From IMG/VR virus record IMGVR_UViG_3300035182_001709: a stretch of DNA of 64,000 nucleotides. The stretch is one strand, 5' to 3'. The translations under genes and the position numbers were made by a program. Numbering within the stretch: position 1 is the first letter of the stretch; each line of letters starts with the position of its first letter. The stretch comes from a virus (taxonomy: Duplodnaviria > Heunggongvirae > Uroviricota > Caudoviricetes). Shown piece after piece: positions 13,729 to 42,585 of the stretch. The notes beneath the pieces are model-generated. The model worked only from the letters and a program-made list of their open reading frames with translations. It had not been told where the DNA came from and did not search any database.

Positions 13729-13731
13729 AAT

Positions 13732-13945: not shown

Positions 13946-13971
13946 ATACAGTCGATCATCGAGATGATCGG

Positions 13972-14053: not shown

Positions 14054-14272
14054 ATTTGGAGGACCCACTGCTGTCGACCACCGGTTCAGTTTCGATTTTG
14101 GCTTCTTCCTGCCATCATCTCAGCTGCCCCGGAAGCGGACGGGGCAGCGAGGCCCCCATCACACTTGCGTATTGGCATACGCGGTGGCATTATCTTGCCA
14201 CTGCTTCTGCTGATACTGCTTGTTGACGTTCGTTTTCATGACAGTTTCTTCTTCGTACGACCCTTACGGGCT

Positions 14273-14349
14273 TGGTCGACCGGGGGAGAGTCGAACTCCC
14301 GACAACACGTGTATCAGACGTGTGCTCTAACCGACTGAGCTACCGGTCG
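14273..14349 (-). tRNA. tRNA-Ile (GAU), CCA encoded
   Basis: arm CACGU-CUGAUAC-ACGUG. Confidence 0.75.
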
Positions 14350-28656: not shown

Positions 28657-28884
28657 TCAACCGTACTTCTTCAGCTCTGCCAGAGCCCACCGCTTCAGCT
28701 CGGGCTCGAAGCGCTCCACCCGCGAGCGCGTCTCAGGATCCAGGTCAGGGTCCTCCGCCAGTGCGAAGAAAATGCTCTCGAGGTGATCCACCGCGCCCTC
28801 ACCGTCCTGCGAGCCACAGTCACTCGCGAGCCCTTCCCACGCCGCCGCGACCGCACACTTGAAGTCTCGTTCGGTGATTGCCAT
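28657..28884 (-). CDS. hypothetical small protein (75 aa)
   Basis: ORF plus cassette 28885..28924. Confidence 0.55.
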   Translation of the reverse strand: MAITERDFKCAVAAAWEGLASDCGSQDGEGAVDHLESIFFALAEDPDLDPETRSRVERFEPELKRWALAELKKYG

Positions 28885-28924
28885 GAATCTATCCTACCCT
28901 GTTCAGAGGCGAAGGTTCACTGCG
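28885..28924 (-). promoter_or_regulatory. promoter cassette GTGAACCTTCGCC-TCTGAAC-AGGGTAGGATAG-attc-ATG
   Basis: repeat family. Confidence 0.6.
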
Positions 28925-29123
28925 CCCACCGAGCCGCGCCCAGCATCTCCTTGCTCGAGAGGATCTCTGCGTCGAGCATCAGCATATCGTGGCTCAGCCA
29001 ACGCCGGGCCCGCTTGATCGCCTCACCTTCGGTGGCGGCCTTGATCTTGATGGCGCTGGGCTTCACTGCGACCGCACCGAGCTTGCGGAAGAGAACGCGG
29101 AAGATGCGAATGTCAGGCGGCAT
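28917..29123 (-). CDS. hypothetical small protein (68 aa)
   Basis: ORF; start overlaps upstream gene stop. Confidence 0.5.
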   Translation of the reverse strand: MPPDIRIFRVLFRKLGAVAVKPSAIKIKAATEGEAIKRARRWLSHDMLMLDAEILSSKEMLGAARWAQ

Positions 29124-29290
29124 CGAGCTGCTCCTTCATGGCGTCCCGGGCCTCGATACGCTTGGCGCGGCGGTTGATGGCGCGCTTGATGCGGGCCGCG
29201 GGCTTGCTGAGTCCACCGCCACAGTCCTTGCTGGTGTAGCGGCCGGCTTCTTCCCAGTGCTTGTTGGCGATCTTCTTCCAGGTGGCCATG
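29114..29290 (-). CDS. hypothetical small protein (58 aa; not in ORF track)
   Basis: manual translation MATWKKIANKHWEEAGRYTSKDCGGGLSKPAARIKRAINRRAKRIEARDAMKEQLDAA; cassette 29291..29331. Confidence 0.45.
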
Positions 29291-29307
29291 TGTCTACTCT
29301 ACCACGA

Positions 29308-29661
29308 TCAACCGGGAGTTTGCACCAGGCCCGCCTTGACTGCCGCGAGCTCCGCGAGCTGGGTTCGGGCATATGTGTGGGCCAGCTTCCGCGCCTGCTC
29401 CAGGTGGATGCCGGTGAGGTGGTTCCCGCGGGCCAGCCACTTGCCGTAGTAGGCAATGCGATGCCCATGACTGTGACGGACGCCCACTTGGTTGTTAACG
29501 TGAGTGCTCTCGGTCGCCTTCTCGGAAGTGGTCTGGCGCTCGTAGAGGACCTTGATGGCACGCTCCACCGCGGCAGGATTGGCGTCCAGGGACGCGCGGA
29601 CCTTCGCGGTCATCTCAGAGCGAACCTTGCTAGAGAGCTTGATGCGAGCGGGGTGGGCCAT
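29308..29661 (-). CDS. hypothetical protein (117 aa)
   Basis: ORF plus cassette 29662..29700. Confidence 0.55.
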   Translation of the reverse strand: MAHPARIKLSSKVRSEMTAKVRASLDANPAAVERAIKVLYERQTTSEKATESTHVNNQVGVRHSHGHRIAYYGKWLARGNHLTGIHLEQARKLAHTYARTQLAELAAVKAGLVQTPG

Positions 29662-29700
29662 GATTTGATTCTATCCCGATCGATGTTGAAGATTCACGGA
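29662..29700 (-). promoter_or_regulatory. promoter cassette GTGAATCTTCAAC-ATCGATC-GGGATAGAATCA-aatc-ATG
   Basis: repeat family. Confidence 0.6.
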
Positions 29701-29987
29701 GTCGCGCGGATCGTGAGACCCTCCACGTTGGTGAGCCCGAGCTCCTTGGCCGACCAGGGCGTGAAGATGACGTCAACGGTGCACTTCCACTTCGCGGTGG
29801 CCAAGAACTGGGTGATGGCTTTGGCGATCTCCGAGGTGTGGCGGCACTTCCCGAAGCGCTGAGCGCCCTCGCAGGTGCAGCGTCCACGGTTGTCCAGCCG
29901 GTAGACGCGATCGTCAAATGGGTTGTCCGAGAAGACGTATGCCATCGTGGTGTGGAGAGACTCTCGGTGGGCCTTGATCCGTGCCAT
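29694..29987 (-). CDS. small SWIM-type zinc-finger protein (CTCEGAQRFGKCRH)
   Basis: ORF plus cassette 29988..30027. Confidence 0.55.
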   Translation of the reverse strand: MARIKAHRESLHTTMAYVFSDNPFDDRVYRLDNRGRCTCEGAQRFGKCRHTSEIAKAITQFLATAKWKCTVDVIFTPWSAKELGLTNVEGLTIRATP

Positions 29988-30191: not shown

Positions 30192-30557
30192 TCAGTCGAC
30201 CGAGCACATCAGCGCTTCCTGGACCAGCGTCTGGTTGAGGCCCTGCTTGAAACCGTGGAACGTGCGCCAGGTGAAGCGCTTGGTGGGCTGCCCGTAACGC
30301 TTGAAGTTCCACCGCTCGTCCGCGATGATGGACTTGACGAGCTTCAGCACGTCCTTCGGGGACGAGGACTTTGCCTTCATGTGGAGGCGCTCCTCGAAAC
30401 CCGTGGTGTCGCCGGATCCGTCCATGCCGCCAACCGGCGAGCTGGAAGAGACGATCACGTGAACCAGGCGGGTATCTGCGTCGAGCTGGACCTCCATGCG
30501 ATCCGTGTACCGCGAGTCACCTGCGATGTTGGCGTAGATGTAACCGAGTTGGATCAT
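30192..30557 (-). CDS. hypothetical protein (121 aa)
   Basis: ORF plus cassette 30558..30598. Confidence 0.55.
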   Translation of the reverse strand: MIQLGYIYANIAGDSRYTDRMEVQLDADTRLVHVIVSSSSPVGGMDGSGDTTGFEERLHMKAKSSSPKDVLKLVKSIIADERWNFKRYGQPTKRFTWRTFHGFKQGLNQTLVQEALMCSVD

Positions 30558-30648
30558 GGGTCTAGTCTACCTCATCTTCTGGGAGAAATACACAGCCCCG
30601 TGAGAGCTTCTAGCGCTCGCGGGCTTGCAACTCATTGCACTGCTTGGG

Positions 30649-30861
30649 TCAGTCGTCGTAGCGACTGAAGTACTTGCCGCAGCACGGGCAGCTGGCATTG
30701 TTCCCGAGGCCCGGGTGGGAGCACCACTCGCGAGTCTCAGCGAGCAGCGCTCGACTGAGCTTGAGCTCGGTCTCCAACGCTTTGATGTGCTCCAGGACGC
30801 TCTGAACCGCGGGCGCGACCTGGTCCTGCGTCATCGGGAACTCAATCTTCGGGATCGCCAT
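30649..30861 (-). CDS. small Cys-containing protein (start MAIPKIEF) preceded by 24-aa micro-ORF 30862..30936 (TGATG coupling)
   Basis: ORF 30649..31044 trimmed; cassette at 30937..30975. Confidence 0.45.
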   Translation of the reverse strand: MAIPKIEFPMTQDQVAPAVQSVLEHIKALETELKLSRALLAETREWCSHPGLGNNASCPCCGKYFSRYDD

Positions 30862-30967
30862 CACTTCTTCTCTTTGCGTTTGAAGGGCCCCTCGTGGAGG
30901 ATCGCCTGCTTGATCTGCTCGCGGGTTTTGGCCATGTCTCTGTTGTACCTTGTTTCGTTGTTGAAGT

Positions 30968-31186
30968 TCACAGCTGCGCGGCACGCTGGAGGCAATCACG
31001 CCACTCTCGGCAGAAGTAGTCCCACTCCTCGTGGCTGGGATCACGGCCCAGCACGCCCGAGACAGTGCGGCGGACTGCGTGGTCGGGCTCGTGGCCCAGT
31101 TCAGCCCACTCCTCGGCCATGCCGCTGCCGATCGTGATGTCCCAGGCCGTGCTCTCGAGGATCCGACGGGTGCCTTGGTTGACCAT
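30968..31186 (-). CDS. hypothetical small protein (72 aa)
   Basis: ORF plus cassette 31187..31228. Confidence 0.55.
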   Translation of the reverse strand: MVNQGTRRILESTAWDITIGSGMAEEWAELGHEPDHAVRRTVSGVLGRDPSHEEWDYFCREWRDCLQRAAQL

Positions 31187-31228
31187 GAGATTATCCTACC
31201 ATGTTCAGATGTGAATTTGCACTCGCAA
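31187..31228 (-). promoter_or_regulatory. promoter cassette GTGCAAATTCACA-TCTGAAC-ATGGTAGGATAAT-ctc-ATG
   Basis: repeat family. Confidence 0.6.
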
Positions 31229-31533
31229 CGGACATTGGACGGTGCCCACCAGCCACGCCACGTGATCCACGAGCGTCATCAGCACCAGCTCGAGGCGGGC
31301 CATGCGCTTCTAACTTGTCCGCGAGGCCTATTGTAGGCCCAAGTCACAGACGATTTGCACAATGACACACGTGAATACTCACGGGCCCAAGTGGGGTAAC
31401 CCATTACCCTGACATGAAAGCACTCACGTGGGTCCCACGGGGGCTGTGACCGTGGCCCGAAACGGGGTCAAGGCCTGACCCAGTGAGGATCGCGGCCTTG
31501 ACTGTTGGAGTTTACCTTGTGAACTTCTGCGAA

Positions 31534-32181
31534 TCAGGCGTCCGTGCCCGTCGCCTCACGATCGGCCGCAGCCAGTGGCTCGACGTCCGAGGTGAAGCAG
31601 TACACCGGCTTGTTGACGCCCTCGATCTCGACGTAGCAGCGGATGCGCTGCGCCTTGGTGACCGTACCCGTCTTGCCGATGAAGCGCGGGTCGCCGCCAA
31701 CGATGGTGACCGTATGACCGGCCTCGATCCTCGTGTCCAGTGCTCGCTCCGTCGCCTTGACGCGGTTGAAGTGCTGGATGTGCAGCGCCAGGCTCGCCAG
31801 GTCGGCGCGGCCCAGGTTCGCGGTCGCATCACCGAAGAGGATCTGCGCGGCACCCGCGAGCTGCGGAAGCTTCTCGCCTGCCTTGGTGACCTTGCTCATG
31901 TGCGCCGGCTTGCGGGCTGCCAGCTTCTCGGCGCGGGCCTTCTCGCGGGCCGCTGTCTTCGCAGCCTTGCGCTCCGCGCGCTCCGCCTCGAGCTTCGTCT
32001 TGCGGGCCTCGCGCTCTTCGTCGGTGAGCTTCGGCTTCGCAGCTGCCCTCGCGGGCTTCTCCGCCTTCGTCTCCGCGGTCTTCGTCGCGGTCTCGCCCTT
32101 GGCCTTGGCCGCTGCGCGGGCCTTGGCCGCCGCAATCGCTGCATCGATCTTCGAGGTCTTCTCGTCCGACTTGTCACTCAT
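31534..32181 (-). CDS. Ala/Lys-rich histone-like (H1/HU-tail-like AKA repeats) protein with C-terminal KOW-like barrel
   Basis: 215 aa; promoter with ~45-nt leader and GGAGAG RBS. Confidence 0.55.
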   Translation of the reverse strand: MSDKSDEKTSKIDAAIAAAKARAAAKAKGETATKTAETKAEKPARAAAKPKLTDEEREARKTKLEAERAERKAAKTAAREKARAEKLAARKPAHMSKVTKAGEKLPQLAGAAQILFGDATANLGRADLASLALHIQHFNRVKATERALDTRIEAGHTVTIVGGDPRFIGKTGTVTKAQRIRCYVEIEGVNKPVYCFTSDVEPLAAADREATGTDA

Positions 32182-32293
32182 GGTGTTCTCTCCGTGAATC
32201 CTTGGTTTTGGTGGGTGCCAGCTTGTAGGTTGAATCTATGTCACACCGCAGGTGCTTTACACCCACGAAGTTCGCAAAGATTCGTTGATGATT

Positions 32294-32533
32294 TCAGGCA
32301 TCGAGCTCGAACCAGGTCTCGACCAGCGCCTTCGCGTGGGGCTTGCGCTGCTTGACCGTGATGCTGCCGTCGTCGTTGACGCTCTCGACGGTGGCCGGGA
32401 CGTCCTTGCGGAAGGCGCTCGCCTCCCCATCCTTTTCCGCGACGAACCCGTAGAGGACGCCCTTGTGGCAGAGGGCGAGGGTACCCATGGTCGAGTAGAT
32501 GCGGCGCGGCGAGTCGGAGGTCTTCATGCTCAT
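32294..32533 (-). CDS. hypothetical small protein (79 aa)
   Basis: ORF; cassette with 40-nt leader. Confidence 0.5.
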   Translation of the reverse strand: MSMKTSDSPRRIYSTMGTLALCHKGVLYGFVAEKDGEASAFRKDVPATVESVNDDGSITVKQRKPHAKALVETWFELDA

Positions 32534-32612
32534 GGTGTGCTCTCTTCCGTGGTGGTAAGGTTGGAGGGGGCTTGATTAGCCTATCACGTGATCTGGGGAA
32601 CTTGCACTGCGT

Positions 32613-32876
32613 TCAGTCATTGAAGATGTGAAGCCGGGTGCCCTGCTCGTCGGCCGACTTGTAGATCCAGGCAGCGATCTCGCCGTCGTTCACCTCGGTG
32701 TTCTCGTAGAGGAAGTCCTTGGTGCGCCCGGTGCGGTGGCTCTGAACCGTCAGCTTCATCGGGGCGCACCAGTCTGGGCTCATGCAGGCGATGCTGGAGG
32801 CCTCCGTGATGCCAACGTTATCCTTCCAGATGAAGATGAAGCCAGGGATGACCGGGATGTCGCAGGAAGTTTCCAT
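32613..32876 (-). CDS. hypothetical small protein (87 aa)
   Basis: ORF plus cassette 32877..32912. Confidence 0.55.
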   Translation of the reverse strand: METSCDIPVIPGFIFIWKDNVGITEASSIACMSPDWCAPMKLTVQSHRTGRTKDFLYENTEVNDGEIAAWIYKSADEQGTRLHIFND

Positions 32877-32908
32877 GGTTCTAGTCTACCACGATCCTCA
32901 CTAAAGGT

Positions 32909-33094
32909 TCACATCTCGCGGGTGATGATCTCCTCATCGTCAACGTCTTTGTTCCAGACGTTGATCGACAGGCACCGCGCCTTCTAGGAGGCGAGCTCTG
33001 TTGCTTCCTCCTCCGTCGCAGCCTCGACCTCAACGCCCCGCGAGAGGCGTTGGATGACCTTAACGGTCTAGGTGCGGACCTTGGGCTTAGGCAT
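32909..33094 (-). pseudogene. cassette-driven 61-codon reading frame interrupted by two in-frame TAG codons (pseudogene or readthrough candidate)
   Basis: ATG placed exactly like other cassette genes (cassette 33095..33139); TGA stop embedded in next cassette; TAGs at 33068-33070 and 32984-32986. Confidence 0.3.
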
Positions 33095-33168
33095 GTCTAG
33101 ATCCTAAACACGCCGGGACTTGAAGATTCACAGTGCAAACTTTCGTCCATGTGTGGTAGACTAGAACC
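33095..33168. promoter_or_regulatory. back-to-back divergent cassettes sharing CACAGTG core (minus GTGAATCTTCAAG...; plus GTGCAAACTTTCG...GTGGTAGACTAGaacc-ATG)
   Basis: strand switch of the small-gene array. Confidence 0.55.
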
Positions 33169-33393
33169 ATGGAAACCATCCAGTGCCGGACCTGCGGCGG
33201 CGTCGCCCATCCCGCGACCGGGTGCGCCTACACCGCGACCTTCATCGTCTGCGGGCCGTGCACCCGCGAGTTCTGGGCCTGGCTGCGCTCGCGGGTCAAC
33301 AGCCGCCCGAGTCGGCGCCACGGTGGCCCGAGCTTTTACGATCACGTCAACCGCGTCGCTCCCCCTGTGCAAATCCACCACGAAACGGAGTAA
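33169..33393 (+). CDS. small Cys-rich zinc-binding protein (CRTCGG...CGPC)
   Basis: ORF; plus-strand cassette 33140..33168. Confidence 0.55.
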   Translation: METIQCRTCGGVAHPATGCAYTATFIVCGPCTREFWAWLRSRVNSRPSRRHGGPSFYDHVNRVAPPVQIHHETE

Positions 33394-33402
33394 GATCTAA
33401 TC

Positions 33403-33771
33403 ATGGCCAACACCACCAACGAAATCATCGGCTACCGCGTCGTCAACACCCGTGACCAGGTCTTCGTCGACCATAACCCTAGCTTCTCTGGGTCCGGCAA
33501 CTTCCAGACCTCCCGTGAGCCGACGCCCATCTCGCGCGGCGATGCCTTCCGACGCCTCGCGGCCTTCCTCGATGCCTTCCCCGAGGAAGATCACCAGAAA
33601 TTCGCCGTCGAGCCCGTCTACCGTGAGCTGACGCCCATCGAGTCCAGTGCCCGCGAGCTCGGGAGTCTCCTGTCTTCCCTCTGCCAACGCCACGGGATCA
33701 ATCTCGGTATGTCCCAGGCCGAGATCGAGGCCCAGCTCGTCCGCGAGCTCCGGGCGTTCGGCGCCCGCTGA
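33403..33771 (+). CDS. hypothetical protein (122 aa)
   Basis: ORF. Confidence 0.55.
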   Translation: MANTTNEIIGYRVVNTRDQVFVDHNPSFSGSGNFQTSREPTPISRGDAFRRLAAFLDAFPEEDHQKFAVEPVYRELTPIESSARELGSLLSSLCQRHGINLGMSQAEIEAQLVRELRAFGAR

Positions 33772-33859
33772 GTTCACACCACAACTAGCGCACACGGGGC
33801 TCGGGCAATCGCTCGGGCCCCGTGTGCATTTTATCCCGCGATCGTGATACACTAGAACC

Positions 33860-34162
33860 ATGGCAACCAACCTCAAGTTCGCTGATGTGCTAAACTACCT
33901 CGCCACGTGCCAGCTCACCCCCACGGAGACGCAGCAGCTGGCCAAGGCCTGGAACGCCAACATCAAACGGCAGCGTACCGCGACGAAGGAGACCGCGATC
34001 GCCCAGTTCCGCGTCGGACAGCGCGTCAGCTTCACGGCCCGTGGCGGGTTTCCCTGCACCGGCGTCATCGAGAAGGTGATGCGGGTCAACTGCTGGGTCC
34101 GTGAGGATATGACGAAGCAGCGCTTCTACTGCCCGTCGACCTGCCTCAAGATCATCGCCTGA
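33860..34162 (+). CDS. hypothetical protein (100 aa)
   Basis: ORF plus cassette ending CACTAGAACC-ATG. Confidence 0.55.
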   Translation: MATNLKFADVLNYLATCQLTPTETQQLAKAWNANIKRQRTATKETAIAQFRVGQRVSFTARGGFPCTGVIEKVMRVNCWVREDMTKQRFYCPSTCLKIIA

Positions 34163-34177
34163 TCCTCGCTCGCGGGT

Positions 34178-34223
34178 GTGCAACTCGTTGCAAAGGCACC
34201 GACAGGTGTGGTAGGATAAATCC
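34178..34223 (+). promoter_or_regulatory. plus-strand cassette TGTGCAACTCGTTGCA...GGTGTGGTAGGATAaatcc-ATG
   Basis: repeat family; preceded by conserved GCGCTCGCGGG extension. Confidence 0.55.
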
Positions 34224-34679
34224 ATGACCTGGGGCAAGCGACCCTCATCACGTGGTAGGGGACCGATCAACTGGAAGAAGGACGCAGAGACCTTCGCGGT
34301 GCCGGTTGGCAAGATTCGGCGTCATACCCACGAGGAAGACGTCCCACTCGAGAAGCAAGAACTATACGCCGCCCACATGGTCCCGGGCGCGATGTGGGAG
34401 GTGATGAAGGACCTCGAGCTGGTCAAGCTCGGTCCCAACGTGGTGCAGCCGCCCTTTCCACTGCTGCAGGTCCACATACCTCGCACCTGGGATCCGACCT
34501 ACGATCCCAACAAGTCGACCGTTGCCCGCGCCAAGGCCATCGCTCTCTACGTTGACTCCGTCCGCGTGGATGAGCAGGGCAAGCAGGGCACGCTCCGCGT
34601 GGTCCGCCACACCTTCATCGTCGGCGGCGGGCGCTACATCATCACAGATCTCAACTGGGTCAGGCCGATTGATGACTGA
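34224..34679 (+). CDS. hypothetical protein (151 aa)
   Basis: ORF plus cassette 34178..34223. Confidence 0.55.
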   Translation: MTWGKRPSSRGRGPINWKKDAETFAVPVGKIRRHTHEEDVPLEKQELYAAHMVPGAMWEVMKDLELVKLGPNVVQPPFPLLQVHIPRTWDPTYDPNKSTVARAKAIALYVDSVRVDEQGKQGTLRVVRHTFIVGGGRYIITDLNWVRPIDD

Positions 34680-34959
34680 GAAGAAGCGTTCTCCACGGCA
34701 GCTGGCCCGCCTAGCGTTGGGCGAACTCGTCATCTACAACGAACACCCGTCCCGGAAGGACGAGCCCGACCGCTTAGCGATGGTCATCGGCTGCTGGCGC
34801 TGGGGTGCTGACAGCAAGACACGGGAGGACCTCTTCAACGTCTGCCCCCGCGAGGTCGACTGGGCACAGGGCTACCTGCTACTGCCCAACTCAGAATCGC
34901 GCTGGGTCCGTTGCTGGTTCGGCGACATAGACACACCCGAAAAGCTCCGCCGCGCTTAA
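34673..34959 (+). CDS. hypothetical protein (95 aa), ATGACTGA overlap with upstream gene
   Basis: C-terminal part of ORF 34522..34959. Confidence 0.5.
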
Positions 34960-34967
34960 ACGACTTT

Positions 34968-35012
34968 CGCCCCCGAAACTCTGTGGAGTCCGGGGGCGAA
35001 CCTCATTTTCGA
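34968..35012. terminator. perfect 10-bp GC hairpin (TTCGCCCCCG/CGGGGGCGAA) between convergent gene blocks; bidirectional terminator candidate
   Basis: inverted repeat followed by CATTTT. Confidence 0.5.
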
Positions 35013-35137
35013 GGCCTAGGTTACAGGGACTACGTCGGTTCGCCCTTTCACCTGCTTATAAAATATATTTGCTCAGGGCATGCACCATGCCATACCCGAC
35101 CCCCGAGCGACGCTGGTTGATGGGAAGTCCCTACGGA

Positions 35138-35545
35138 CTATCCCTCTTTCTTCCCATCGCTTGACTCCTCCTCTCGCTTGATGGTCTTGAGCTGCTTGAC
35201 CATCGGCTCAACCTTGGTCTTCATGACTTCATCGTAGACAGCCTGCTTGCGCGCCAGCCTCTGCCTCCGTGAAGGTCGCGTCGGCTTGCCTTTCTTTGGG
35301 ACGGCAACGTATTTGTTCTTGACGAGCTTCTTTCGCTCCTCGGGCAGCTTCACCAGCTGCTTCTTCATCTGCTTACGCCACAGCTTGCGAAACTTCCGCT
35401 TCAAGCGTCGGGCATCTTCCTGCTGCAGGCCTTTCAACGCACGGCGGACGTCCATCGTCGGGTCTTCCATCGGGACGATGCCCTCTTGGAACATTGCCGT
35501 ATGGATGAAGATTCGCGTGGCGTCGTTGAGCTTGTTGTTGCGCAT
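35138..35545 (-). CDS. basic Lys/Arg-rich protein (135 aa)
   Basis: ORF. Confidence 0.5.
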   Translation of the reverse strand: MRNNKLNDATRIFIHTAMFQEGIVPMEDPTMDVRRALKGLQQEDARRLKRKFRKLWRKQMKKQLVKLPEERKKLVKNKYVAVPKKGKPTRPSRRQRLARKQAVYDEVMKTKVEPMVKQLKTIKREEESSDGKKEG

Positions 35546-35880
35546 CAGCTGCCTCCGACCTTCTGCTGCCAGACTCGTCGAATCGATTCTATCGCCTGGT
35601 GCATCCGTTGTGCACCGACGGGATTGGCCGAATGAACGCTGATGATCTCAGGCGGGATGAAGTCCTGACGGGCGCACTGCTCTTCCAACCAGCAGACAAC
35701 ATCGTAGCCGGTGCCTGCGCTCAGAGGTCCCAGATCGTGGTCGAGGCTTAGCTCCACCACGCGGCCCGTCTCCAACAGGCGCTGCGCGCCCGCCGCTGTC
35801 TTGGCGTGGATCCAACCTGAGGGCGCAGGCCGCTCATCATCAAGCCACAGTCGCATCGTCATCTGCTTCTGCTGGGTCAT
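35545..35880 (-). CDS. hypothetical protein (111 aa)
   Basis: ORF. Confidence 0.5.
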   Translation of the reverse strand: MTQQKQMTMRLWLDDERPAPSGWIHAKTAAGAQRLLETGRVVELSLDHDLGPLSAGTGYDVVCWLEEQCARQDFIPPEIISVHSANPVGAQRMHQAIESIRRVWQQKVGGS

Positions 35881-36427
35881 CGTATTTCTCGTATCCAGGC
35901 GCCTTCGTCGCCCAGAGCAGGTATGTCCGCAGCATGGCGACCCGCGTCCTGTCGAAGGCTGCCTTGTCTTTCTTGGTCAACGCACCCAGGCGCCGCGCTA
36001 GCTTCCAACCACGGTGCCAGGCCTCGAACTCTTCATCAACGATGTCAATTCGATGATGAAATGAACGCTTAACGTCGGGATCCTGGTTGCCGTAGCCCAT
36101 CCCGTAGCGCTCATATTTGTCCTTGCTGCCGATCAGGTGGTGCCCACACTCATGCAGGAGGATGTGCAGCTGGTGCTTCGGCGAAGCCCGGCCGCTGACC
36201 TTGATCTCCTTGTCAGCCGTGTAGTAGATACCACCGCTGCGCTTGCAGAAGGTCACTGTCAGCGACCGGGCCTCACACCACTCCACCACCACGCGGAGTG
36301 CCGAAACGTAGTGGCGATCTTCCGTCCACCGCTTGGTGGCCCGGTCTGCGTTCTTGCCCGCTTGGATCGCTTTTTGAAAGCGATCCCAGGCACGTGCATT
36401 CCACAGCTCGAGATCGAAGGCCGCCAT
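35840..36427 (-). CDS. zinc metallopeptidase-like protein (HExxH: LLHECGHHLIG)
   Basis: ORF; immediately downstream of MoxR-like ATPase. Confidence 0.5.
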   Translation of the reverse strand: MAAFDLELWNARAWDRFQKAIQAGKNADRATKRWTEDRHYVSALRVVVEWCEARSLTVTFCKRSGGIYYTADKEIKVSGRASPKHQLHILLHECGHHLIGSKDKYERYGMGYGNQDPDVKRSFHHRIDIVDEEFEAWHRGWKLARRLGALTKKDKAAFDRTRVAMLRTYLLWATKAPGYEKYDDPAEADDDATVA

Positions 36428-36440
36428 GCAGGTAACTAGG

Positions 36441-37601
36441 TCACTTCTTCTTCCCTCCCGCCCCGGGCGACTTGAAGATGCCGGGGATGTCAGGAACGAT
36501 GCCGATGCCAGCCTCGCCCATCGGGACGCCGAAGACGTCCAGGACTGCGGCCGCGCAGTACTTGTGGATGCTGCGTGCCAGCTCCATTTTGTCGGTGCCA
36601 GGCAGGGTCAGCTTGGACCAGCAGTTGACGCGCTGCTCACCCGGCAGGTCCTTGAGAAACTGCTTCAGGTTGGTGCCTTGCTTCTCGGTCAGACTGTTGA
36701 GGTTCTTGGTCACGTGGTCCGAGACCTTATCGACCAGATCGTTGATGCGGTCGGCCGTGAACTTCTTGACCTTGTGCTGGACCTTGTCGTACCCGTCGAT
36801 CACGTCTTTGCCCGAGACGCGGGTGTCGACGGTGACCGCGAAATCGTGGAAGGCGATCGCCGCCTCGACACCGACGAAGCCCACGGCTATGTGGTAGAAC
36901 AGCGGGTTGCTGGGATCATCCGCGACCCCGGCGTGCTTGTGCGAGCGGTCCATACGCTCCCAGCTACGCCGCGAGGAATGAACGCTGCCGGCCTCGGCGC
37001 CCTTGGGCGGGTCGAGCCACTTCTCGCCGTTGGCAGCGTGGAAGTCGATCAGGGTCGGGTGAATGTCACCCTCGCCCTTTGCCCAGGCGAGCCAGTCCTT
37101 GACGTCCGGCTTGAGGTCGACGACCCAGAAGCGATCGAGGAGCGCCGGATCCATCTCGTTGACCGTGTACTCCTGTGAGGAGTTGATGGCCGACCAGACG
37201 CGGGTCTGGGGGTGCAGCTTCCAGCCGTTGAGCTCACGGTCGAGCACGATCTGGAACGCTGCCTGCATGACCTCCTGGGTCGCGCGGTTCAGCTCGTCCA
37301 GCAGGAGGAAGCAGGGCCGGACGCAGGCACGCTTGTACCAGTCGGGCGGATTGAAGCGCGTGACCTCGCCGTCGGTGCTGGGGAGGCCGATGAGATCGCC
37401 TTCCGTCTTCTGCGACAGGCGCTGGTCGATGAACTCGAAGTCCTTGATCTGCTCCGCGTGAGCGATGATGCGGGCGACCTGGCGAGCCAGCTGCGACTTG
37501 CCGATCCCGTGAGGACCGCGCAGCAGGACGGAGATGAAGGCGGGGAGCTTGGGAGAGACGTCCACAAGGGTATGGATCGCCATGGAGTTGGGAGTTGCCA
37601 T
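36441..37601 (-). CDS. MoxR/AAA_5-type AAA+ ATPase
   Basis: Walker A GPHGIGKS; 'LLLDELNRATQEVMQAAFQIVLDRE'. Confidence 0.75.
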   Translation of the reverse strand: MATPNSMAIHTLVDVSPKLPAFISVLLRGPHGIGKSQLARQVARIIAHAEQIKDFEFIDQRLSQKTEGDLIGLPSTDGEVTRFNPPDWYKRACVRPCFLLLDELNRATQEVMQAAFQIVLDRELNGWKLHPQTRVWSAINSSQEYTVNEMDPALLDRFWVVDLKPDVKDWLAWAKGEGDIHPTLIDFHAANGEKWLDPPKGAEAGSVHSSRRSWERMDRSHKHAGVADDPSNPLFYHIAVGFVGVEAAIAFHDFAVTVDTRVSGKDVIDGYDKVQHKVKKFTADRINDLVDKVSDHVTKNLNSLTEKQGTNLKQFLKDLPGEQRVNCWSKLTLPGTDKMELARSIHKYCAAAVLDVFGVPMGEAGIGIVPDIPGIFKSPGAGGKKK

Positions 37602-37645
37602 GTGGTGGTGTCTCTATCCTAACTTAGCGAGTCCCGGCTTTACAC

Positions 37646-38341
37646 TCAGGAGACGCGGTGGAGGTGCGAGGTGTTCGGCCGCCGCTCGTCGACGGTGATG
37701 GTGTACTTGCGCTCGACCTTGCCGTTGTAATCGTCCCGCGAGACGGGGTAGACGCCCGTCTTGATGCCCGGCAGCAGCGAGGAGGGGATGTTGCGATCCT
37801 GACCCACGCGCATACCCTTGCGGACCATGTCGGCGGCCTCGTGGAGAACACGCTCGATGCGGGCTTCCTCGGCCTTGCGTTCCTGCTCGGCCATGAACGC
37901 CGCCTGCTCCTCCGCGGTGCGGATGCAGACCGCGATCCCGTCGCCGATTTCCGCGTTGATCGCCTCCGTGAGCTCGACGACCCTGGTGTAGAACTCCAGG
38001 CGCGCCTTGGCGAGGGCGGGCCGCGTGTCTCCGTGGCTGGGCCAGTTGACCTCGACGCGGAACTTGTAGTTCCGCCAGATCGACCCGTCCTCACGGGGCT
38101 TCAGGTCGCGGGTCCAGTCGATCGTATCGAACCGCACGTAGAGGTCACAGCTCGTGTCGATCTGCTCCGTGGTATCGCGGAACATCACGGACACGTTGCC
38201 CGCGGAGCCCGACTTGCGCTGCTCGCGGAGCGACTGCATGGTGTGCGGGGACAGGTACTTCTGCGCGATCTCGCTGGCAAGGATGAGGTCGATGGCCTTG
38301 TGAGCGCGGTCGATGATGAGGGGCTGTTGCATGGCGTTCAT
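37646..38341 (-). CDS. hypothetical protein (231 aa)
   Basis: ORF plus cassette 38342..38383. Confidence 0.55.
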   Translation of the reverse strand: MNAMQQPLIIDRAHKAIDLILASEIAQKYLSPHTMQSLREQRKSGSAGNVSVMFRDTTEQIDTSCDLYVRFDTIDWTRDLKPREDGSIWRNYKFRVEVNWPSHGDTRPALAKARLEFYTRVVELTEAINAEIGDGIAVCIRTAEEQAAFMAEQERKAEEARIERVLHEAADMVRKGMRVGQDRNIPSSLLPGIKTGVYPVSRDDYNGKVERKYTITVDERRPNTSHLHRVS

Positions 38342-38373
38342 GAGTCTATCCTACCAGGATCAGAGATGAAGGT

Positions 38374-38667
38374 TCACAGCAGCGCCAGCGAGATCGCCAG
38401 CTCCAGTCCGGGCTCCGTCAGTGCAAACACGTGAGCACCTGACTTCGTCTTGCCGACGACCTCGATGAAGCCTCGGTGCACCAGGGACGCTCGCCAGCCG
38501 TACCCGTCTCGTCCGGAGGTGACGAGGGAGTGCCCCCACGTCGGGCTCTGGAGCGCTCGTCGCTTCTGTTGGATCACTGCGAAATCTTTCACCGTTGCCG
38601 TCTTGTTGCGGACGAGGGTGAACAGGATATCGCGGATCGTGGGAGAAATGCGGCTTGGATTGACCAT
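38374..38667 (-). CDS. hypothetical protein (97 aa), possible winged-helix
   Basis: ORF plus cassette 38668..38703. Confidence 0.5.
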   Translation of the reverse strand: MVNPSRISPTIRDILFTLVRNKTATVKDFAVIQQKRRALQSPTWGHSLVTSGRDGYGWRASLVHRGFIEVVGKTKSGAHVFALTEPGLELAISLALL

Positions 38668-38703
38668 GAGACTATCCTACCAGGTTCAGCGTTGAAGATT
38701 CAC
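38668..38703 (-). promoter_or_regulatory. promoter cassette GTGAATCTTCAAC-GCTGAAC-CTGGTAGGATAG-tctc-ATG (consensus copy); box A supplies the TGA stop of the upstream gene
   Basis: repeat family. Confidence 0.6.
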
Positions 38704-38855
38704 TGCGCGCCACAGGCGCTTGACCTCACGCCATAGTTCCTCGACTGTGCACGCAATCTCCTTGCGGAACTCTTTTGAGAGAGGACGCGAGGACTGTGCC
38801 CGGACGTTGTCCGTTAGGATCTCGATGTCCGCGTCGGTCAAGGGGCGCTTGCCAT
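38703..38855 (-). pseudogene. cassette-driven small gene with frame disruption directly after ATG (ATG-GCA-AGC-GCC-CCT-TGA; protein-like frame continues in -1 frame)
   Basis: cassette 38856..38891 positions the ATG; the open frame KRPLTDADIEILTDNVRAQ... lacks a start. Confidence 0.3.
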
Positions 38856-39337
38856 GGTTCTAGTTTAACTCAGCGAACCCAAAGTTTGCACTGCGAGCAC
38901 AGAATATTCGTAGAATCAAGCCATAAGATACCCCGTCGGGCCCATGAAAGCCCTCCCGTGGGTCCCCTGTGGGCACAGTTTTGGTTGCTCATGGGCCCGA
39001 GAAGTGTAAGAGCTCATGGGCCCAGGGTACTATAAGACCATGAGCAACGCCTTCTAGAACTTCGTCAGGCAGCACGATACAGGCATCTCGCGGACCGGGT
39101 GTCCACGCGGCACCTCTCGGGTTCGATCTTGACCTGACTCACCTGTCGGAGCTGCTGCGGCTTGCCCAGCAGACGGGTTACCAGCTCTGCAACACGGGCT
39201 GGGATGACTGCATCATGGTCACCTAGACTTTCAGCGTTGGCTGATCGCGCTCGCGAGTGTGCAACCCATTGCACTGGGTGAAAATCAGCGCCTGGGCGTG
39301 ATAGACTGTAGACCTCCACCACCACGGGGTAAGATAT

Positions 39338-40102
39338 ATGGCGAGCATGAACCTCAACGTCGGAATCAAGGGCCTGAAGCAGGGCACCAACATCATGGAT
39401 GTTGAGGTGCCTGAGAAGCTGAAGCAGCGCATCAAGACCGGCATCACCTGGTTCGATGACGCGGTTGGTGGCCAGGGTTTCGTGCCCAGCTCCGTCATGA
39501 TGCTGACCGGTACGCCTGGCGCCGGCAAGACCACGATGCTGCTGCAGCTGGCGGACGCCATCACCGGGCAGGGGAACATCTGCCTCTACAACACCGGCGA
39601 GGAGTCGCTCTACCAGGTGCGCATGGTGACCGAGCGCCTGAAGTTGAAGCACGGCTTCATCTGTGGCCAGGACATCATGGTGCCCGACCTGCTGAAGCAC
39701 GCGGACGCGCTGCGCAAGGCCAACCCGAAGAAGCAGGTCTTCATTCTGCAGGACTCGCTGCAGACCCTGGACGACGGCAAGTACTCCAACGGTACCAATG
39801 GCGCCACGCCGCTGCGCTGCGTCGAGATGCTGACCGACTGGGCGAAGAGCACCTACGGCATCGTCATCTTCATCGGACAGGTCAACAAGAGCGGCGAATT
39901 CGCCGGCAAGAACGGGATCCTCCACGCGATCGACGTCCGCGGGTCGCTCTACATCGACCAGGAGAAGAACAGCGAGACCTACGGGGAGCGCATCTTCGAG
40001 GTCACCAAGAACCGCTTCGGTTGCTCGGGCCGCGCCTACGTCCTCGGCTTCCAGGAGAAGGGGCTCTTCGAGAAGGGCAGCTTCGGCATGAACGAGCGCT
40101 GA
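39338..40102 (+). CDS. RecA-superfamily ATPase (Sak4/RadA/KaiC-like recombination protein)
   Basis: Walker A TGTPGAGKTT; 254 aa. Confidence 0.65.
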   Translation: MASMNLNVGIKGLKQGTNIMDVEVPEKLKQRIKTGITWFDDAVGGQGFVPSSVMMLTGTPGAGKTTMLLQLADAITGQGNICLYNTGEESLYQVRMVTERLKLKHGFICGQDIMVPDLLKHADALRKANPKKQVFILQDSLQTLDDGKYSNGTNGATPLRCVEMLTDWAKSTYGIVIFIGQVNKSGEFAGKNGILHAIDVRGSLYIDQEKNSETYGERIFEVTKNRFGCSGRAYVLGFQEKGLFEKGSFGMNER

Positions 40103-40194
40103 ACCCGCGATCTGGGGGCGCAATTCTCGGGAGAGACGGGGGCACGGGTCCTTAGGGACCCAAGCTCACGCGGCCAACGGGAGACCAATAGCGC

Positions 40195-40232
40195 CGAACC
40201 CGGTTCGATTCCGGGGCGCTCCACGAGAGACG
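40195..40232 (+). ncRNA. tRNA-like minihelix (acceptor stem stacked on T-arm, CCA encoded) with no D or anticodon arms
   Basis: AGCGCC-GAA-CCCGG-TTCGATT-CCGGG-GCGCT-CCA. Confidence 0.35.
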
Positions 40233-40514
40233 GATATACTGACAAGGGCAACACCACGTGCCGGGAGGTAAAGGAACAACTAGTCGAAGTCGTCAGTTGA
40301 CAGATGCCTTGACAAGACTGGATCTACGTAGCATTGCAAGAACCTGCCAGATCAAGTCAAAAGAGGTCGTTTCTCTCTTTCAATGACGATGTTAGCTCGT
40401 GATTCTTCTCCTTTGCGGGAGAAATGTCAGCCAACATCTACGTTCTATAAGTTGACCGTAGATCTCGTAAGACAGATGCATGTTTAACAATGACAGGGAG
40501 AGGAAGAGAAAGTC

Positions 40515-40552
40515 TCTGCTCCCCGGTCAACCCCATCTCAACACCGGGGTTT
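40515..40552 (+). terminator. rho-independent terminator candidate (CCCCGGT...ACCGGGG TTTTT)
   Basis: 7-bp GC stem, U5 tract. Confidence 0.45.
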
Positions 40553-40900
40553 TTACGGCTTCTTAGCCTGAGACTTGCGGAGGCGTTCCGCCTTCTCCTT
40601 GTCCTTCTTTTCTTTTTCCTCGGCACGCTCGTCTGAGGTCTTGACGGTGTGCAGGGACTTCTCATCATCGAGATAGTAATAGAGGGTACGCTTGGCAACG
40701 CCCAGCTCGCTGGCTGCCTTGGCAGCATCGCCCCCGTGACCGTTTACGGCGGCGCGGACCCTGTTGCGGAACTTCTCAGGGTTGAGCTGGCGCACTGCCC
40801 CGATGTCGGTGCGCGGCCCGCCGGGCTTGGCGTGGCGCTTCTTCTCGTCGAGGAGATCCAACGTCTCCTTGATGAACTCCTTCAACAGTGCTGCACTCAT
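40553..40900 (-). CDS. Fis/NtrC-C-terminal-type HTH DNA-binding protein
   Basis: 'AAKAASELGVAKRTLYYYL'; start at internal MSAALLKEF. Confidence 0.5.
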   Translation of the reverse strand: MSAALLKEFIKETLDLLDEKKRHAKPGGPRTDIGAVRQLNPEKFRNRVRAAVNGHGGDAAKAASELGVAKRTLYYYLDDEKSLHTVKTSDERAEEKEKKDKEKAERLRKSQAKKP

Positions 40901-41134
40901 GGGTCTAAGTAGGCAGCCCGCGCTCGCGGGTGTGCAACTCATTGCACAGTTGATACCCATGAGAGGGCCCAATTCCGCAACTCACAGGTAGAGTTCATAG
41001 TCGAAGTTCCACACGGGGATGCGGGCACGGGCCCAAGAAAAAGCTTCCAACCCCGCGGCAACCCCATCTCTTTGCCGGCATTTATGCAAATGTTCTGAGT
41101 GCAAAGCTCGCTTGGGAAGGGATAGAATCTGAAC

Positions 41135-41800
41135 ATGGGCAAGAAGGCAACCGCAGATAAGTCTCCTGAGCTGGTCCCCACGAGCCTCACGGGACCCGCG
41201 GAAGATAACCCTGGCATCACGTCGGAGCTGCAGGCACCCCCGGGACTCTCGGACGAGGACCTGGAGCTGCAGGCTGCGCTGACCGATCCCATGGCTGCGC
41301 AGGCGGCCCGTGATGCTCGCAAGCCCGATATCACGTGGCTGGAAGACGCAGTGGTCGAGGCCGAGGGCATGAAGGTCCCCCTCTTCAACGTGGGCGACCG
41401 GATCGTCATCGAGCGCTACTGCCGCATGCTGCAGGGGTCCCCGTGGCTCGATACGCAGACCTACGAAGTCCAGTCCATCGACGATGAGACGGGCGATCTC
41501 CGCCTGTGGAACCCGGATCTCAAGCAGTTCGCCATGTCCAACTTCATCAAGGGCCCCGCGAGGGGCGACGTCTTCAAGCTGGCCCCCGCCAAGGGCAGCA
41601 TCGGCAAGAAGAAGCGTGGCCGCCCGCGGAAGCACCCTCTTGGTGCTCCCAAGCCCGAGGTCAAGCCCGGTGAGAAGCGTGGCCGGGGTCGCCCGAAGGG
41701 CAGCAAGAACCGGCCCAAGGACGTCATCAAGGCCGAGAAGGCTCGCCTGCAGCAGGAGCGCCAGGCCAGGGCCTCGCGGAAGCGCCGGGTGAAGAAGTGA
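41135..41800 (+). CDS. AT-hook DNA-binding protein (KRGRPRK, RGRGRPKGSK)
   Basis: 221 aa; cassette 41095..41134. Confidence 0.55.
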   Translation: MGKKATADKSPELVPTSLTGPAEDNPGITSELQAPPGLSDEDLELQAALTDPMAAQAARDARKPDITWLEDAVVEAEGMKVPLFNVGDRIVIERYCRMLQGSPWLDTQTYEVQSIDDETGDLRLWNPDLKQFAMSNFIKGPARGDVFKLAPAKGSIGKKKRGRPRKHPLGAPKPEVKPGEKRGRGRPKGSKNRPKDVIKAEKARLQQERQARASRKRRVKK

Positions 41801-42039: not shown

Positions 42040-42585
42040 TTTACGCGGCCCAGATTTATCATGTGGTGTGCACCAGCAGCAAAAAGTGCCCTCCGCGACT
42101 GGAGCTAAGGCCCGATCTATTCTTCTTAGACAAATGTCGCACCATCTCACAGGACAGCCTTTGTTCCCGCGGGATTTCCTTATCCTTGGGCCCAAAGTCC
42201 ATACCAAATGTCCACTTCGCCAGTGACACTGCCACATATTAGTCCCCCTCATGCCCGCGAGTGCAGGCACGCGGGCCGAGGCGCGCGGCGAGAGTGCAAT
42301 TCAGTGATCATCACTGGTGATCTGCTTCCTCAAGATTAAAGCTGCCCAACAGGTTTCGTTCAGTTCATTTACTGACCTGTGTCCCTGTTGAGTGTGAACA
42401 TGCCAGTCACCTGTTGAGTCTGCATCAGCAACTATGATGTCAGGATCAAGCGCGGGTTCCTGACTGACAAGGCCAAGATCATTTCTCGATATTGAGATTT
42501 TGTCCGCGCCCAGAACTCAGAGCAGCTGAATAACAAGAAATCCTGTGAGTGATACAAGTGGTCCACGGTGGATAATAGTTAAACG

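What the first reader, a model, noticed from the sequence alone, without database searches (positions are those of the whole stretch)
30607..40950. Conserved plus-strand 30-bp element GCGCTCGCGGGTGTGCAACTCATTGCAC containing a 7-4-7 palindrome (TGTGCAA-N4-TTGCACA)
At least four copies lie at strand-switch or operon-start positions: 30607-30640, 34163-34195, 39238-39272 and 40916-40950. There is a related copy at 42293. The palindromic core contains box A (GTGCAA) in both orientations and sits between divergent promoters, as at 40900/41135. It is a candidate operator for a dimeric regulator, or a bidirectional -35 element, or both.
Basis: seen in the sequence. Interest (0 to 1): 0.5.

Follow-up and report, generated by a model that had tools for sequence, protein, structure and literature searches.

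The report
Jumbo-phage operator palindrome near promoters
Four copies of a 28-30 bp element in an uncultivated 309-kb phage are most likely binding sites (operators) for a small phage-encoded helix-turn-helix protein that controls its own gene and a few neighbouring early/replication genes - an ordinary kind of phage switch, but with an uncharacterised protein family and a half-site that copies the phage's own -35 promoter box.

Summary
The 28-mer GCGCTCGCGGGTGTGCAACTCATTGCAC has exactly four copies (30613, 34166, 39247, 40920), all on the + strand and all intergenic, against 0 expected. The "copy" at 42293 is not one.

The window belongs to a 309-kb jumbo-phage contig. GTGCAA is the -35 box of a leaderless promoter class with 21 exact copies (0.01 expected).

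The core palindrome, GTGCAAC-GR-GTTGCAC, is conserved and multi-copy in nine related phage lineages. All of them encode a homologue of the 115-aa Fis/NtrC-like HTH protein (40553-40900). Fourteen related loci lack that gene. They have as many GTGCAA promoters but no palindrome. The two kinds of lineage interleave on a RadA/KaiC-like tree.

The palindrome overlaps or abuts the -35 box. It lies in the HTH gene's own promoter in three lineages and before the RadA-like gene in three.

RNA hairpin, terminator, sigma-54 and bidirectional-promoter readings fail their tests.

Best reading: an operator for that autoregulated dimeric regulator (confidence about 0.55; binding not shown).

Two features are unexplained: the GC box found only in this genome, and the fixed chromosomal polarity of the central dinucleotide (27 of 29).

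This is a new member of a known kind, of moderate interest.

The parts
30613..30641 (+). Copy 1: GC box GCGCTCGCGGG plus palindrome cTTGCAAC-TC-ATTGCACt (16-bp core 30625-30640). It starts 8 bp downstream of the stop codon (30649-30651) of minus gene 30649-30861. It ends 19 bp upstream of the -35 box (GTGTAT, 30593-30588) of the leaderless promoter of minus gene 30192-30557. Its centre is about -75.5.
34166..34194 (+). Copy 2: TCGCTCGCGGG plus TGTGCAAC-TC-GTTGCAAa (core 34178-34193). It starts 3 bp after the stop codon of gene 33860-34162. Its right half, TTGCAA (34188-34193), is the -35 box of the promoter TTGCAA-N18-TAGGAT-N6-ATG(34224). Its centre is -38.5.
39247..39275 (+). Copy 3: GCGCTCGCGAG plus TGTGCAAC-CC-ATTGCACt (core 39259-39274). 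It lies in the 450-bp non-coding stretch upstream of the RadA/KaiC-like gene. Three bp downstream comes the promoter GTGAAA(39278-39283)-N18-TAGACT(39302-39307). Its centre is about -47.5.
   Evidence: same architecture in L114
40920..40948 (+). Copy 4, the consensus copy: GCGCTCGCGGG plus the perfect palindrome TGTGCAA-CTCA-TTGCACA (core 40932-40947). On the minus strand it reads TTGCAC-N20-TACTTA-N5-ATG(40900), so it overlaps the -35 region of the HTH gene's own promoter. Its centre is -39.5.
40553..40900 (-). Candidate regulator of 115 aa. It has the conserved motif PGGPRTDxGAxRQL and a C-terminal Fis/NtrC-type helix-turn-helix, GDAAKAASELGVAKRTLYYYLDD.
   Evidence: Pfam HTH_8 E=0.0027, 17.8 bits, below the 22-bit cut-off; 12 homologues; AF2 pLDDT 81; best fold hits are NtrC-type DNA-binding domains and Fis, with weak E-values; PDB sequence hit to an HTH_8 consensus peptide, E=0.2
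39338..40102 (+). RadA/KaiC-like ATPase gene, a putative regulated target downstream of copy 3. In L114 and L119 the same gene is also preceded by the palindrome.
34224..34679 (+). 151-aa gene of unknown function, a putative regulated target whose -35 box lies inside copy 2. It has orthologues in all relatives.
30192..30557 (-). 121-aa gene of unknown function. Its leaderless promoter lies downstream of copy 1, making it a possible target.
41099..41137 (+). Reference example of the canonical leaderless promoter, GTGCAA-N18-TAGAAT-N6-ATG, of gene 41135-41800. It has no palindrome and is conserved in relatives.

Best explanation
The element is an operator. Its 16-bp core, GTGCAAC-NN-GTTGCAC (7-2-7), is bound by a dimer of a phage-encoded sequence-specific DNA-binding protein. 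The most likely binder is the 115-aa Fis/NtrC-type HTH protein encoded at 40553-40900. Each half-site is nearly identical to the -35 hexamer (GTGCAA) of the phage's own leaderless promoter class. The sites overlap or abut the -35 box of a subset of promoters. The bound protein is therefore inferred to compete with, or contact, sigma region 4. This would tune its own gene (copy 4), the 151-aa gene at 34224 (copy 2), the RadA/KaiC-like gene (copy 3) and possibly the gene at 30557 (copy 1). What is shown: the repeat, its conservation, its positions, and its co-occurrence with the HTH gene. What is inferred: binding, dimerisation, and the sign of regulation. Repression is most likely at copies 2 and 4. 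The sign is open at copies 1 and 3. The one-sided GC box GCGCTCGCGGG is specific to this genome and its role is unknown.
For: 1. Four near-identical intergenic copies against 0 expected.
2. The core is conserved and multi-copy in nine further lineages carrying the HTH homologue: L098, L101, L102, L104, L114/L016, L118, L119, L120 and L121. With the window that makes 32 copies, 29 of them intergenic.
3. Phylogenetic profile. The first seven HTH+ loci (166 kb, including the window) hold 24 palindromes (23 unique) at up to 1 mismatch. The 14 HTH-negative related loci (232 kb) hold 0. The two sets have similar numbers of GTGCAA hexamers (141 and 190) and canonical promoters (58 and 65). The four extra HTH contigs of 3.4-5.6 kb all hold 1-3 perfect copies. 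HTH+ and HTH- lineages interleave on the RadA/KaiC-like NJ tree.
4. Autoregulatory geometry. The palindrome lies in the HTH gene's own promoter in the window, in L118 (21 nt before the ATG) and in L119 (GTGCAA-N18-TATACT).
5. The module palindrome-N2-5-(-35 box) recurs at window copy 3, L104 8737 and three sites in L114. Only a subset of promoters carries it.
6. The protein has an HTH_8-like motif, and its nearest folds are NtrC-type DNA-binding domains and Fis.
7. The divergent HTH in L016/L114 (RTAHYHI instead of RTLYYYL) goes with a variant site, ATGCAAC-TA-GTTGCAC.
Against: - No binding data exist, and the Pfam, fold and PDB matches of the protein are all below significance.
- Eight of the ten HTH+ loci were retrieved through the HTH protein itself. 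HTH-negative status refers only to the 10-22 kb sampled, so the profile could reflect linkage within one mosaic module.
- Distances from site to transcription start vary widely (-28.5 to -110.5). About 10 sites sit 2-14 nt after a stop codon, which is not what a simple repressor model predicts.
- The palindrome is not at the HTH promoter in most relatives.
- The central dinucleotide keeps one chromosomal polarity in 27 of 29 copies, and this genome's copies carry a one-sided GC box. A symmetric dimer explains neither.
- Unrelated phage groups without this HTH family also carry multi-copy GTGCAAC-NN-GTTGCAC palindromes.
Confidence: 0.55

Rival explanations
1. RNA-level hairpin. The palindrome is transcribed and forms a 6-7 bp stem-loop that terminates transcription, stabilises 3' ends or serves as a processing site between closely packed transcription units.
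For: About 10 of 29 intergenic copies in the clade lie 2-14 nt after a stop codon. Examples are window copies 1 and 2, L101 7985, L104 11420 and 11819, and L098 10363 between convergent genes.
Against: - No U tract follows any copy, and the terminator scan does not flag them. The phage does have a canonical terminator at 33790-33827.
- Folding energies are no better than shuffles (z from -1.6 to +0.9) and no common fold emerges.
- The stem sequence is invariant, without compensatory changes.
- The loop orientation does not follow the direction of transcription.
- Copies 3 and 4 lie upstream of divergent gene starts.
- There is no Rfam hit.
Confidence: 0.1
2. Protein-free promoter architecture. 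Two -35 boxes face each other and act as a bidirectional or mutually exclusive promoter pair, or as a sigma/RNA polymerase decoy.
For: Each half equals or nearly equals the -35 hexamer. One half does serve as the -35 box in copy 2, in L098 5561 and in L119 2085.
Against: - No copy has -10 boxes on both sides, and copies 1 and 3 have none at 17-19 bp from either half.
- Relatives with the same promoter class, 65 promoters in 232 kb, have no palindrome.
- The seventh base differs: canonical -35 boxes read GTGCAAA, the palindromes GTGCAAC or GTGCAAT.
Confidence: 0.1
3. DNA-level polar or mobile element. The roughly 30-bp unit is a recombination or cassette-junction site, or a replication- or packaging-linked signal, spread by copy-and-paste. 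This is analogous to promoter-stem-loop (PeSL) junctions in T4-like phages.
For: - All four copies are direct repeats sharing a one-sided GC box with sharp edges.
- Sites are more alike within a genome than between genomes (L104 four copies, L114 three copies).
- The central dinucleotide has a fixed chromosomal polarity in 27 of 29 copies.
- The region is highly mosaic between relatives, and the RadA-like gene next to copy 3 is inverted relative to four lineages.
Against: - No recombinase or endonuclease gene is consistently linked.
- Arms of 6-7 bp with a 2-4 bp centre do not fit known tyrosine or serine recombinase sites (from general knowledge).
- Gene order around the sites is otherwise syntenic.
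- This reading does not explain the tie to promoters and to the HTH gene.
Confidence: 0.1
4. Operator for a different protein, either a host regulator or another phage protein such as the winged-helix EarA-like protein 38374-38667.
For: Similar palindromes occur in unrelated phage groups that lack the HTH family. That would fit a widespread host factor. A winged-helix gene lies 580 bp from copy 3.
Against: The winged-helix gene has orthologues in palindrome-free L108 and L109, and none was detected in L098, L102 or L104. A host factor does not explain the strict co-occurrence with the HTH gene among closely interleaved lineages.
Confidence: 0.12

Closest known systems
Phage repressor/operator switches (lambda CI/Cro with OR/OL and similar), from general knowledge
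   Same: Several near-identical 16-18 bp inverted-repeat sites overlap -35/-10 regions. The regulator gene is adjacent to, and preceded by, one of its own sites. A subset of early promoters is controlled.
   Different: The sites are single and scattered over 10 kb, not tandem triplets. The protein is not a Cro/CI (HTH_3) fold but a Fis/NtrC-like HTH with a PGGPRTD motif. The genome is a 309-kb jumbo phage with its own sigma-like gene. The half-site duplicates the -35 hexamer.
NtrC/Fis-family (Pfam HTH_8) DNA-binding domains and their sites; NtrC site TGCACC-N5-GGTGCA recalled from memory
   Same: The HTH motif is GxxxxAAxxLGVxxRTLY. The nearest folds are the NtrC1 and NtrC4 DNA-binding domains and Fis. 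The half-site TGCAAC resembles TGCACC. L102 even has TGCACC-N4-GGTGCA just after its HTH gene.
   Different: There is no AAA+ or receiver domain and no sigma-54 promoter. The spacing is N2 rather than N5. The Pfam score is below threshold.
T4 MotA/MotA-box middle promoters, from general knowledge
   Same: A phage-encoded factor acts at the -35 position of a subset of promoters to re-programme transcription.
   Different: The MotA box is not palindromic. MotA is a monomeric activator that works with AsiA. No homology was found here.
LacI/GalR-family operators (GTGNAANCGNTTNCAC), from general knowledge
   Same: It is a 16-bp palindrome with GTGxAA / TTxCAC half-sites.
   Different: The central CG that defines LacI-family sites is never present; the centre is GA, GG or TA. 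There is no LacI-type gene.
PeSL (promoter-early stem-loop) modules of T4-like phages, from general knowledge
   Same: Repeated intergenic stem-loop-plus-promoter modules occur in a mosaic early region.
   Different: PeSL stems are terminator-like and not conserved in sequence. Here the sequence is invariant and lacks a U tract.

Membership tests
Operator of a dimeric HTH regulator (phage switch type) | Inverted-repeat site of 14-18 bp, repeated, far beyond chance | tested here: met
   4 copies against 0 expected. Clade consensus is GTGCAAC-GR-GTTGCAC with 2-bit columns.
Operator of a dimeric HTH regulator (phage switch type) | Sites lie in non-coding DNA at or next to promoters | tested here: met
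   4 of 4 in the window and 29 of 32 in the clade are intergenic. They overlap or abut -35 boxes at copies 2, 3 and 4, L098 5561, L104 8737, three L114 sites, L118 and L119. Some sites lie 75-110 bp upstream.
Operator of a dimeric HTH regulator (phage switch type) | A cognate regulator gene co-occurs with the sites and is itself preceded by a site | tested here: met
   10 of 10 HTH+ lineages have sites and 0 of 14 HTH- loci do. The site is in the gene's own promoter in the window, L118 and L119.
Operator of a dimeric HTH regulator (phage switch type) | Physical, sequence-specific binding of the protein to the site | not testable with these tools
   Needs EMSA or footprinting.
Pfam HTH_8 / Fis family (for protein 40553-40900) | Score above the Pfam gathering threshold, or a significant fold match | tested here: inconclusive
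   17.8 bits against a 22-bit cut-off. Foldseek top hits are NtrC-type DNA-binding domains and Fis, but E is at least 0.6. PDB profile hit to an HTH_8 consensus peptide, E=0.2.
Bidirectional promoter sharing a -35 region | -10 boxes at 17-19 bp from the -35 box on both strands | tested here: not met
   At most one direction per copy; none for copies 1 and 3 from the palindrome halves.
Intrinsic (rho-independent) terminator | G+C-rich stem followed by a U tract; structure conserved rather than sequence | tested here: not met
   Not flagged by the scan, and no T run follows. Fold z-scores are about 0. The stem is invariant.
Sigma-54 promoter (-24 GG / -12 GC) | GG-N10-GC with TGGCAC-N5-TTGCW | tested here: not met
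   Read from the sequence: the -12-like TTGCA is present, but the position 10 nt upstream reads GT, not GG.
LacI/GalR-family operator | Central CG step in a 14-16 bp palindrome | tested here: not met
   The centre is GA, GG, TC, CC or TA in all 32 copies.
Known RNA family (Rfam 15) | Covariance-model match | tested here: not met
   There is no match at or near any copy even at E up to 1.

The most novel reading that the evidence does not exclude
The palindrome may be a '-35 mimic' operator with chromosomal polarity. A new family of small Fis/NtrC-like proteins in huge phages would recognise an inverted pair of the phage's own -35 hexamers. It would so compete directly with the possibly phage-encoded sigma factor at a chosen subset of leaderless promoters. 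The fixed orientation of the asymmetric centre (27 of 29) and the one-sided GC box would reflect a second, direction-dependent role. Examples of such a role are a polar roadblock to transcription or replication, or a copy-and-paste regulatory cassette.
Probability: 0.15. Interest if true: 0.6.

Novelty: new member of a known kind. Interest (0 to 1): 0.35.

Why it matters
Gene regulation in uncultivated huge phages is almost unknown. This locus gives a concrete, testable regulator-operator pair. It also defines a promoter grammar, GTG(C/A)AA-N18-TAGnnT-N6-ATG with leaderless starts, shared by a clade of 300-kb-class phages that carry their own sigma-like factor. If confirmed, it would show how such phages carve a small regulon out of a uniform promoter class. 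That regulon includes a RadA-like recombination/replication ATPase and the regulator itself. It would also provide a compact orthogonal repressor/operator part. As a kind of system it is conventional.

Tried and rejected
- Exact-pattern scan of IMG/VR for the whole element found nothing. Scans of the JGI metagenome collection gave only chance single hits. The source contig is not in those collections.
- Megablast of 15 kb against cultured phages found no match. tblastn of the RadA-like protein found only hits at or below about 34% identity.
- Relatives found through the vault-like protein (L074-L086) share the promoter class but have no palindrome and no HTH gene.
- RNA folding of all copies on both strands gave no common structure and no energy excess. 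Rfam gave nothing.
- I considered a promoter of its own class, with -35 and -10 inside the 28-mer, and a sigma-54 promoter. I rejected both by inspection, because there is no constant distance to start codons (19 to 187 nt).
- I considered a MerR-like spacer operator, because the GC box fills a 20-bp spacer at copy 4. I rejected it because the other three copies lack that geometry.
- I considered the GC box as an independent motif. GCTCGCGRG is over-represented (18 against 3.2), but the other copies are in coding sequence with no shared context.
- A literature search for the motif returned nothing relevant.
- The Cpn60 look-up failed, probably because the start codon differs.
- A whole-genome census was not possible. 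Only 81 of 309 kb could be read.

Full report
**Observation**

The 28-mer GCGCTCGCGGGTGTGCAACTCATTGCAC occurs at 30613, 34166, 39247 and 40920. All four copies are on the + strand, with 0-3 mismatches, against 0.00 expected from shuffles. The 7-4-7 palindrome alone gives 3 hits at up to 2 mismatches against 0.22 expected. No other site in the window has fewer than 10 mismatches. The alignment shows a sharply bounded block of about 30 bp (family D3). Only copy 4 is a perfect 7-4-7 palindrome. The invariant part is TGCAA-N4-TTGCA plus the left-hand GC box. The claimed copy at 42293 shares only GTGCAA and is followed by a different palindrome, CAGTGAT-C-ATCACTG.

**Context**

The window is part of a jumbo phage. 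It carries:
- 21 tRNA genes;
- a sigma-70-family gene, an ATP-dependent ligase and Cpn60;
- a vault-like protein, an AAA_5 ATPase and a RadA/KaiC-like ATPase.

An exact protein look-up places the window on a 309,481-bp JGI contig. Other assemblies of the same phage are identical over the elements. About 8 kb of extra sequence on each side holds no further copy. So in 81 kb read, the four copies are confined to 10.3 kb around the HTH gene.

**What GTGCAA is**

The pattern GTG(C/A)A(A/C/T)-N18-TAnnnT-N6-ATG occurs 21 times in the window against 0.01 expected, mostly between 25 and 43 kb. The start codon sits where transcription should begin, so these are leaderless promoters and GTGCAA(A) is their -35 box. 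The same class occurs in related phages.

**Anatomy of the four copies**

| Copy | Position | Centre relative to the start |
|---|---|---|
| 2 | Its right half, TTGCAA, is the -35 box of TTGCAA-N18-TAGGAT-N6-ATG(34224) | -38.5 |
| 4 | On the minus strand it gives TTGCAC-N20-TACTTA-N5-ATG(40900), the promoter of the HTH gene. The TACTTA-N5-ATG part is conserved in relatives | -39.5 |
| 3 | Followed after 3 bp by GTGAAA-N18-TAGACT upstream of the RadA-like gene | about -47.5 |
| 1 | Starts 8 bp after the stop codon of gene 30649-30861 and ends 19 bp upstream of the weak -35 box of the leaderless promoter of 30192-30557 | -75.5 |

No copy has a -10 box on both sides.

**Relatives**

Relatives found through the vault-like protein (66-70% identity) keep the promoter class. 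They have no palindrome and no HTH homologue.

Homologues of the 115-aa protein (44-60% identity) led to contigs with conserved synteny. The shared genes are the 221-aa gene, the HTH gene, the RadA-like gene and the AAA_5 gene. Every one of these contigs carries several copies of GTGCAA-N4-TTGCAC. An IMG/VR relative, L104, has four identical copies within 3 kb.

A RadA-like query brought 11 more loci. Only L114/L115 and L117 had palindromes. The L114 contig does encode a divergent HTH homologue, on L016. Four further small HTH contigs all have 1-3 perfect copies.

Totals for the first seven HTH+ loci against the HTH- loci:

| Loci | Sequence | Palindromes (up to 1 mismatch) | GTGCAA hexamers | Canonical promoters |
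|---|---|---|---|---|
| HTH+ (first seven) | 166 kb | 24 (23 unique) | 141 | 58 |
| HTH- (14 loci) | 232 kb | 0 | 190 | 65 |

The four extra HTH contigs add 8 perfect copies. On a RadA-like NJ tree the two kinds of lineage interleave: the window is sister to an HTH- locus. The association is therefore not one clade against another.

The clade consensus is kGTGCAAYGRGTTGCAMw, that is 7-2-7. The GC box is not conserved outside this genome.

**Regulon hints**

The palindrome lies in the HTH gene's own promoter in the window, in L118 and in L119, where GTGCAA-N18-TATACT uses the distal half as the -35 box. It precedes the RadA-like gene in the window, in L114 (palindrome-N5-GTGCAA-N18-TAAACT plus leader) and in L119. 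In L114 only 3 of about 18 canonical promoters carry the upstream palindrome. This is what a regulated subset looks like.

**The protein**

- The family has invariant PGGPRTD.GA.RQL and GD...AA..L.VA.RTLY.YL motifs.
- Pfam HTH_8 is sub-threshold at 17.8 bits against a 22-bit cut-off.
- The AF2 model has mean pLDDT 81.
- Its best PDB fold matches are DNA-binding domains of sigma-54 activators (2m8g; NtrC1 4l5e at rmsd 0.5 A over 35 residues; NtrC4) and Fis. All have E of at least 0.6.
- A PDB profile search hits only an HTH_8 consensus peptide, E=0.2.

'Fis/NtrC-like HTH' is therefore a reasonable description, but family membership is not established. From memory, NtrC sites are TGCACC-N5-GGTGCA. 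The half-site here is TGCAAC.

**Rivals tested**

- RNA hairpin or terminator. Folds are no better than shuffles. No U tract follows. A canonical terminator exists elsewhere, at 33790-33827. The stem is invariant without covariation. There is no Rfam match. However, about 10 copies sit 2-14 nt after stop codons. This keeps a roadblock or 3'-end role alive at low probability.
- Bidirectional -35 element: not met.
- Sigma-54 promoter and LacI-type operator: the defining GG and central CG are absent.
- Alternative binder. The EarA-like winged-helix protein 38374-38667 has orthologues in palindrome-free lineages.

**Unexplained**

1. The central dinucleotide is GA or GG on the strand encoding the HTH gene in 27 of 29 asymmetric copies, regardless of local gene direction. 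The naive binomial p is 1.6e-6, but the sites are not independent.
2. The one-sided GC box occurs only in this genome. There is similar within-genome homogeneity in L104 and L114.
3. Unrelated phage groups that lack this HTH family and this promoter class also carry multi-copy GTGCAAC-NN-GTTGCAC palindromes, with longer arms.

These points argue for some copy-and-paste or polar component. They also caution against treating the core sequence as unique to this protein family.

**Verdict**

The feature is real and non-random. It is best explained as the operator set of a small autoregulated phage HTH regulator acting at the -35 region of a subset of leaderless promoters (confidence about 0.55). 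It is a new member of a known kind, of moderate interest.

Noticed in passing
window 25880-47211 (21 sites listed): There is a very regular leaderless promoter class, GTG(C/A)A(A/C/T)-N18-(gg)TAGnnT-N6-ATG, with 21 exact matches against 0.01 expected. It is conserved in related huge phages. The phage also encodes a sigma-70-family protein (6579-7382, minus strand) that might read these promoters.
   Followed up: partly
window 44546-47125 (+): An 859-aa protein has major-vault-protein shoulder and repeat domains plus an SPFH/Band-7 domain (Pfam MVP_shoulder E=3e-28). It is conserved at 40-70% identity in 13 IMG/VR contigs of up to 369 kb.
   Followed up: partly
window 10247-14349 (-): An array of 21 tRNA genes includes one with anticodon TTA (reads UAA, suppressor type) at 12930-13005.
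   Followed up: no
window 39338-40102 versus L098, L101, L102, L104, L114 and L119: The RadA/KaiC-like ATPase gene is on the opposite strand to the HTH gene in the window, L114 and L119, but on the same strand in L098, L101, L102 and L104. Only in the 'opposite' arrangement is it preceded by its own palindrome-plus-promoter.
   Followed up: partly
window 42302-42316: A separate perfect 7-1-7 palindrome, CAGTGAT-C-ATCACTG, lies in a 550-bp non-coding stretch right after a lone GTGCAA hexamer. It is present only once.
   Followed up: no
window, 18 sites, for example 28719-28731 (-): GCTCGCGRG is over-represented, with 18 copies against 3.2 expected, and is often followed by T. Apart from the four elements, most copies lie in coding sequence. 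One is a 13-nt exact match to the GC box inside the small minus-strand gene 28657-28884.
   Followed up: partly
L053, L041, L031, L046 and L067 (IMG/VR contigs): Unrelated lower-GC phage groups carry 3-5 copies of longer palindromes with the same core. Examples are AAAGTTGTGCAACGCCTTGCACAACTT, and ACATTGTGCAACGYGTTGCACAATCT just upstream of ribosome-binding sites. No homologue of the HTH family was found in the fetched DNA.
   Followed up: partly
L098 9160, L101 5645, L102 3801, L121 62: A copy of the palindrome is conserved inside the coding sequence of the orthologue of window gene 41135-41800, the gene divergent from the HTH gene. The window lacks that copy and instead has copy 4 in the intergenic region.
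   Followed up: no
window 38855-38841 (-): The leaderless promoter at 38891 is followed by a 5-codon ORF (MASAP, then stop). Its stop codon overlaps the TTG start of gene 38686-38841, which suggests possible translational coupling or re-initiation.
   Followed up: no
window 28783-29862 (+): This 359-aa ORF is probably not a gene. Four minus-strand leaderless promoters with short ORFs (starts at 28884, 29289, 29661 and 29987) lie inside it.
   Followed up: no
protein P0001 (window 40553-40900): JGI's name for this protein is 'ribosomal protein S9', which does not fit its HTH motif and is probably an annotation error.
   Followed up: no
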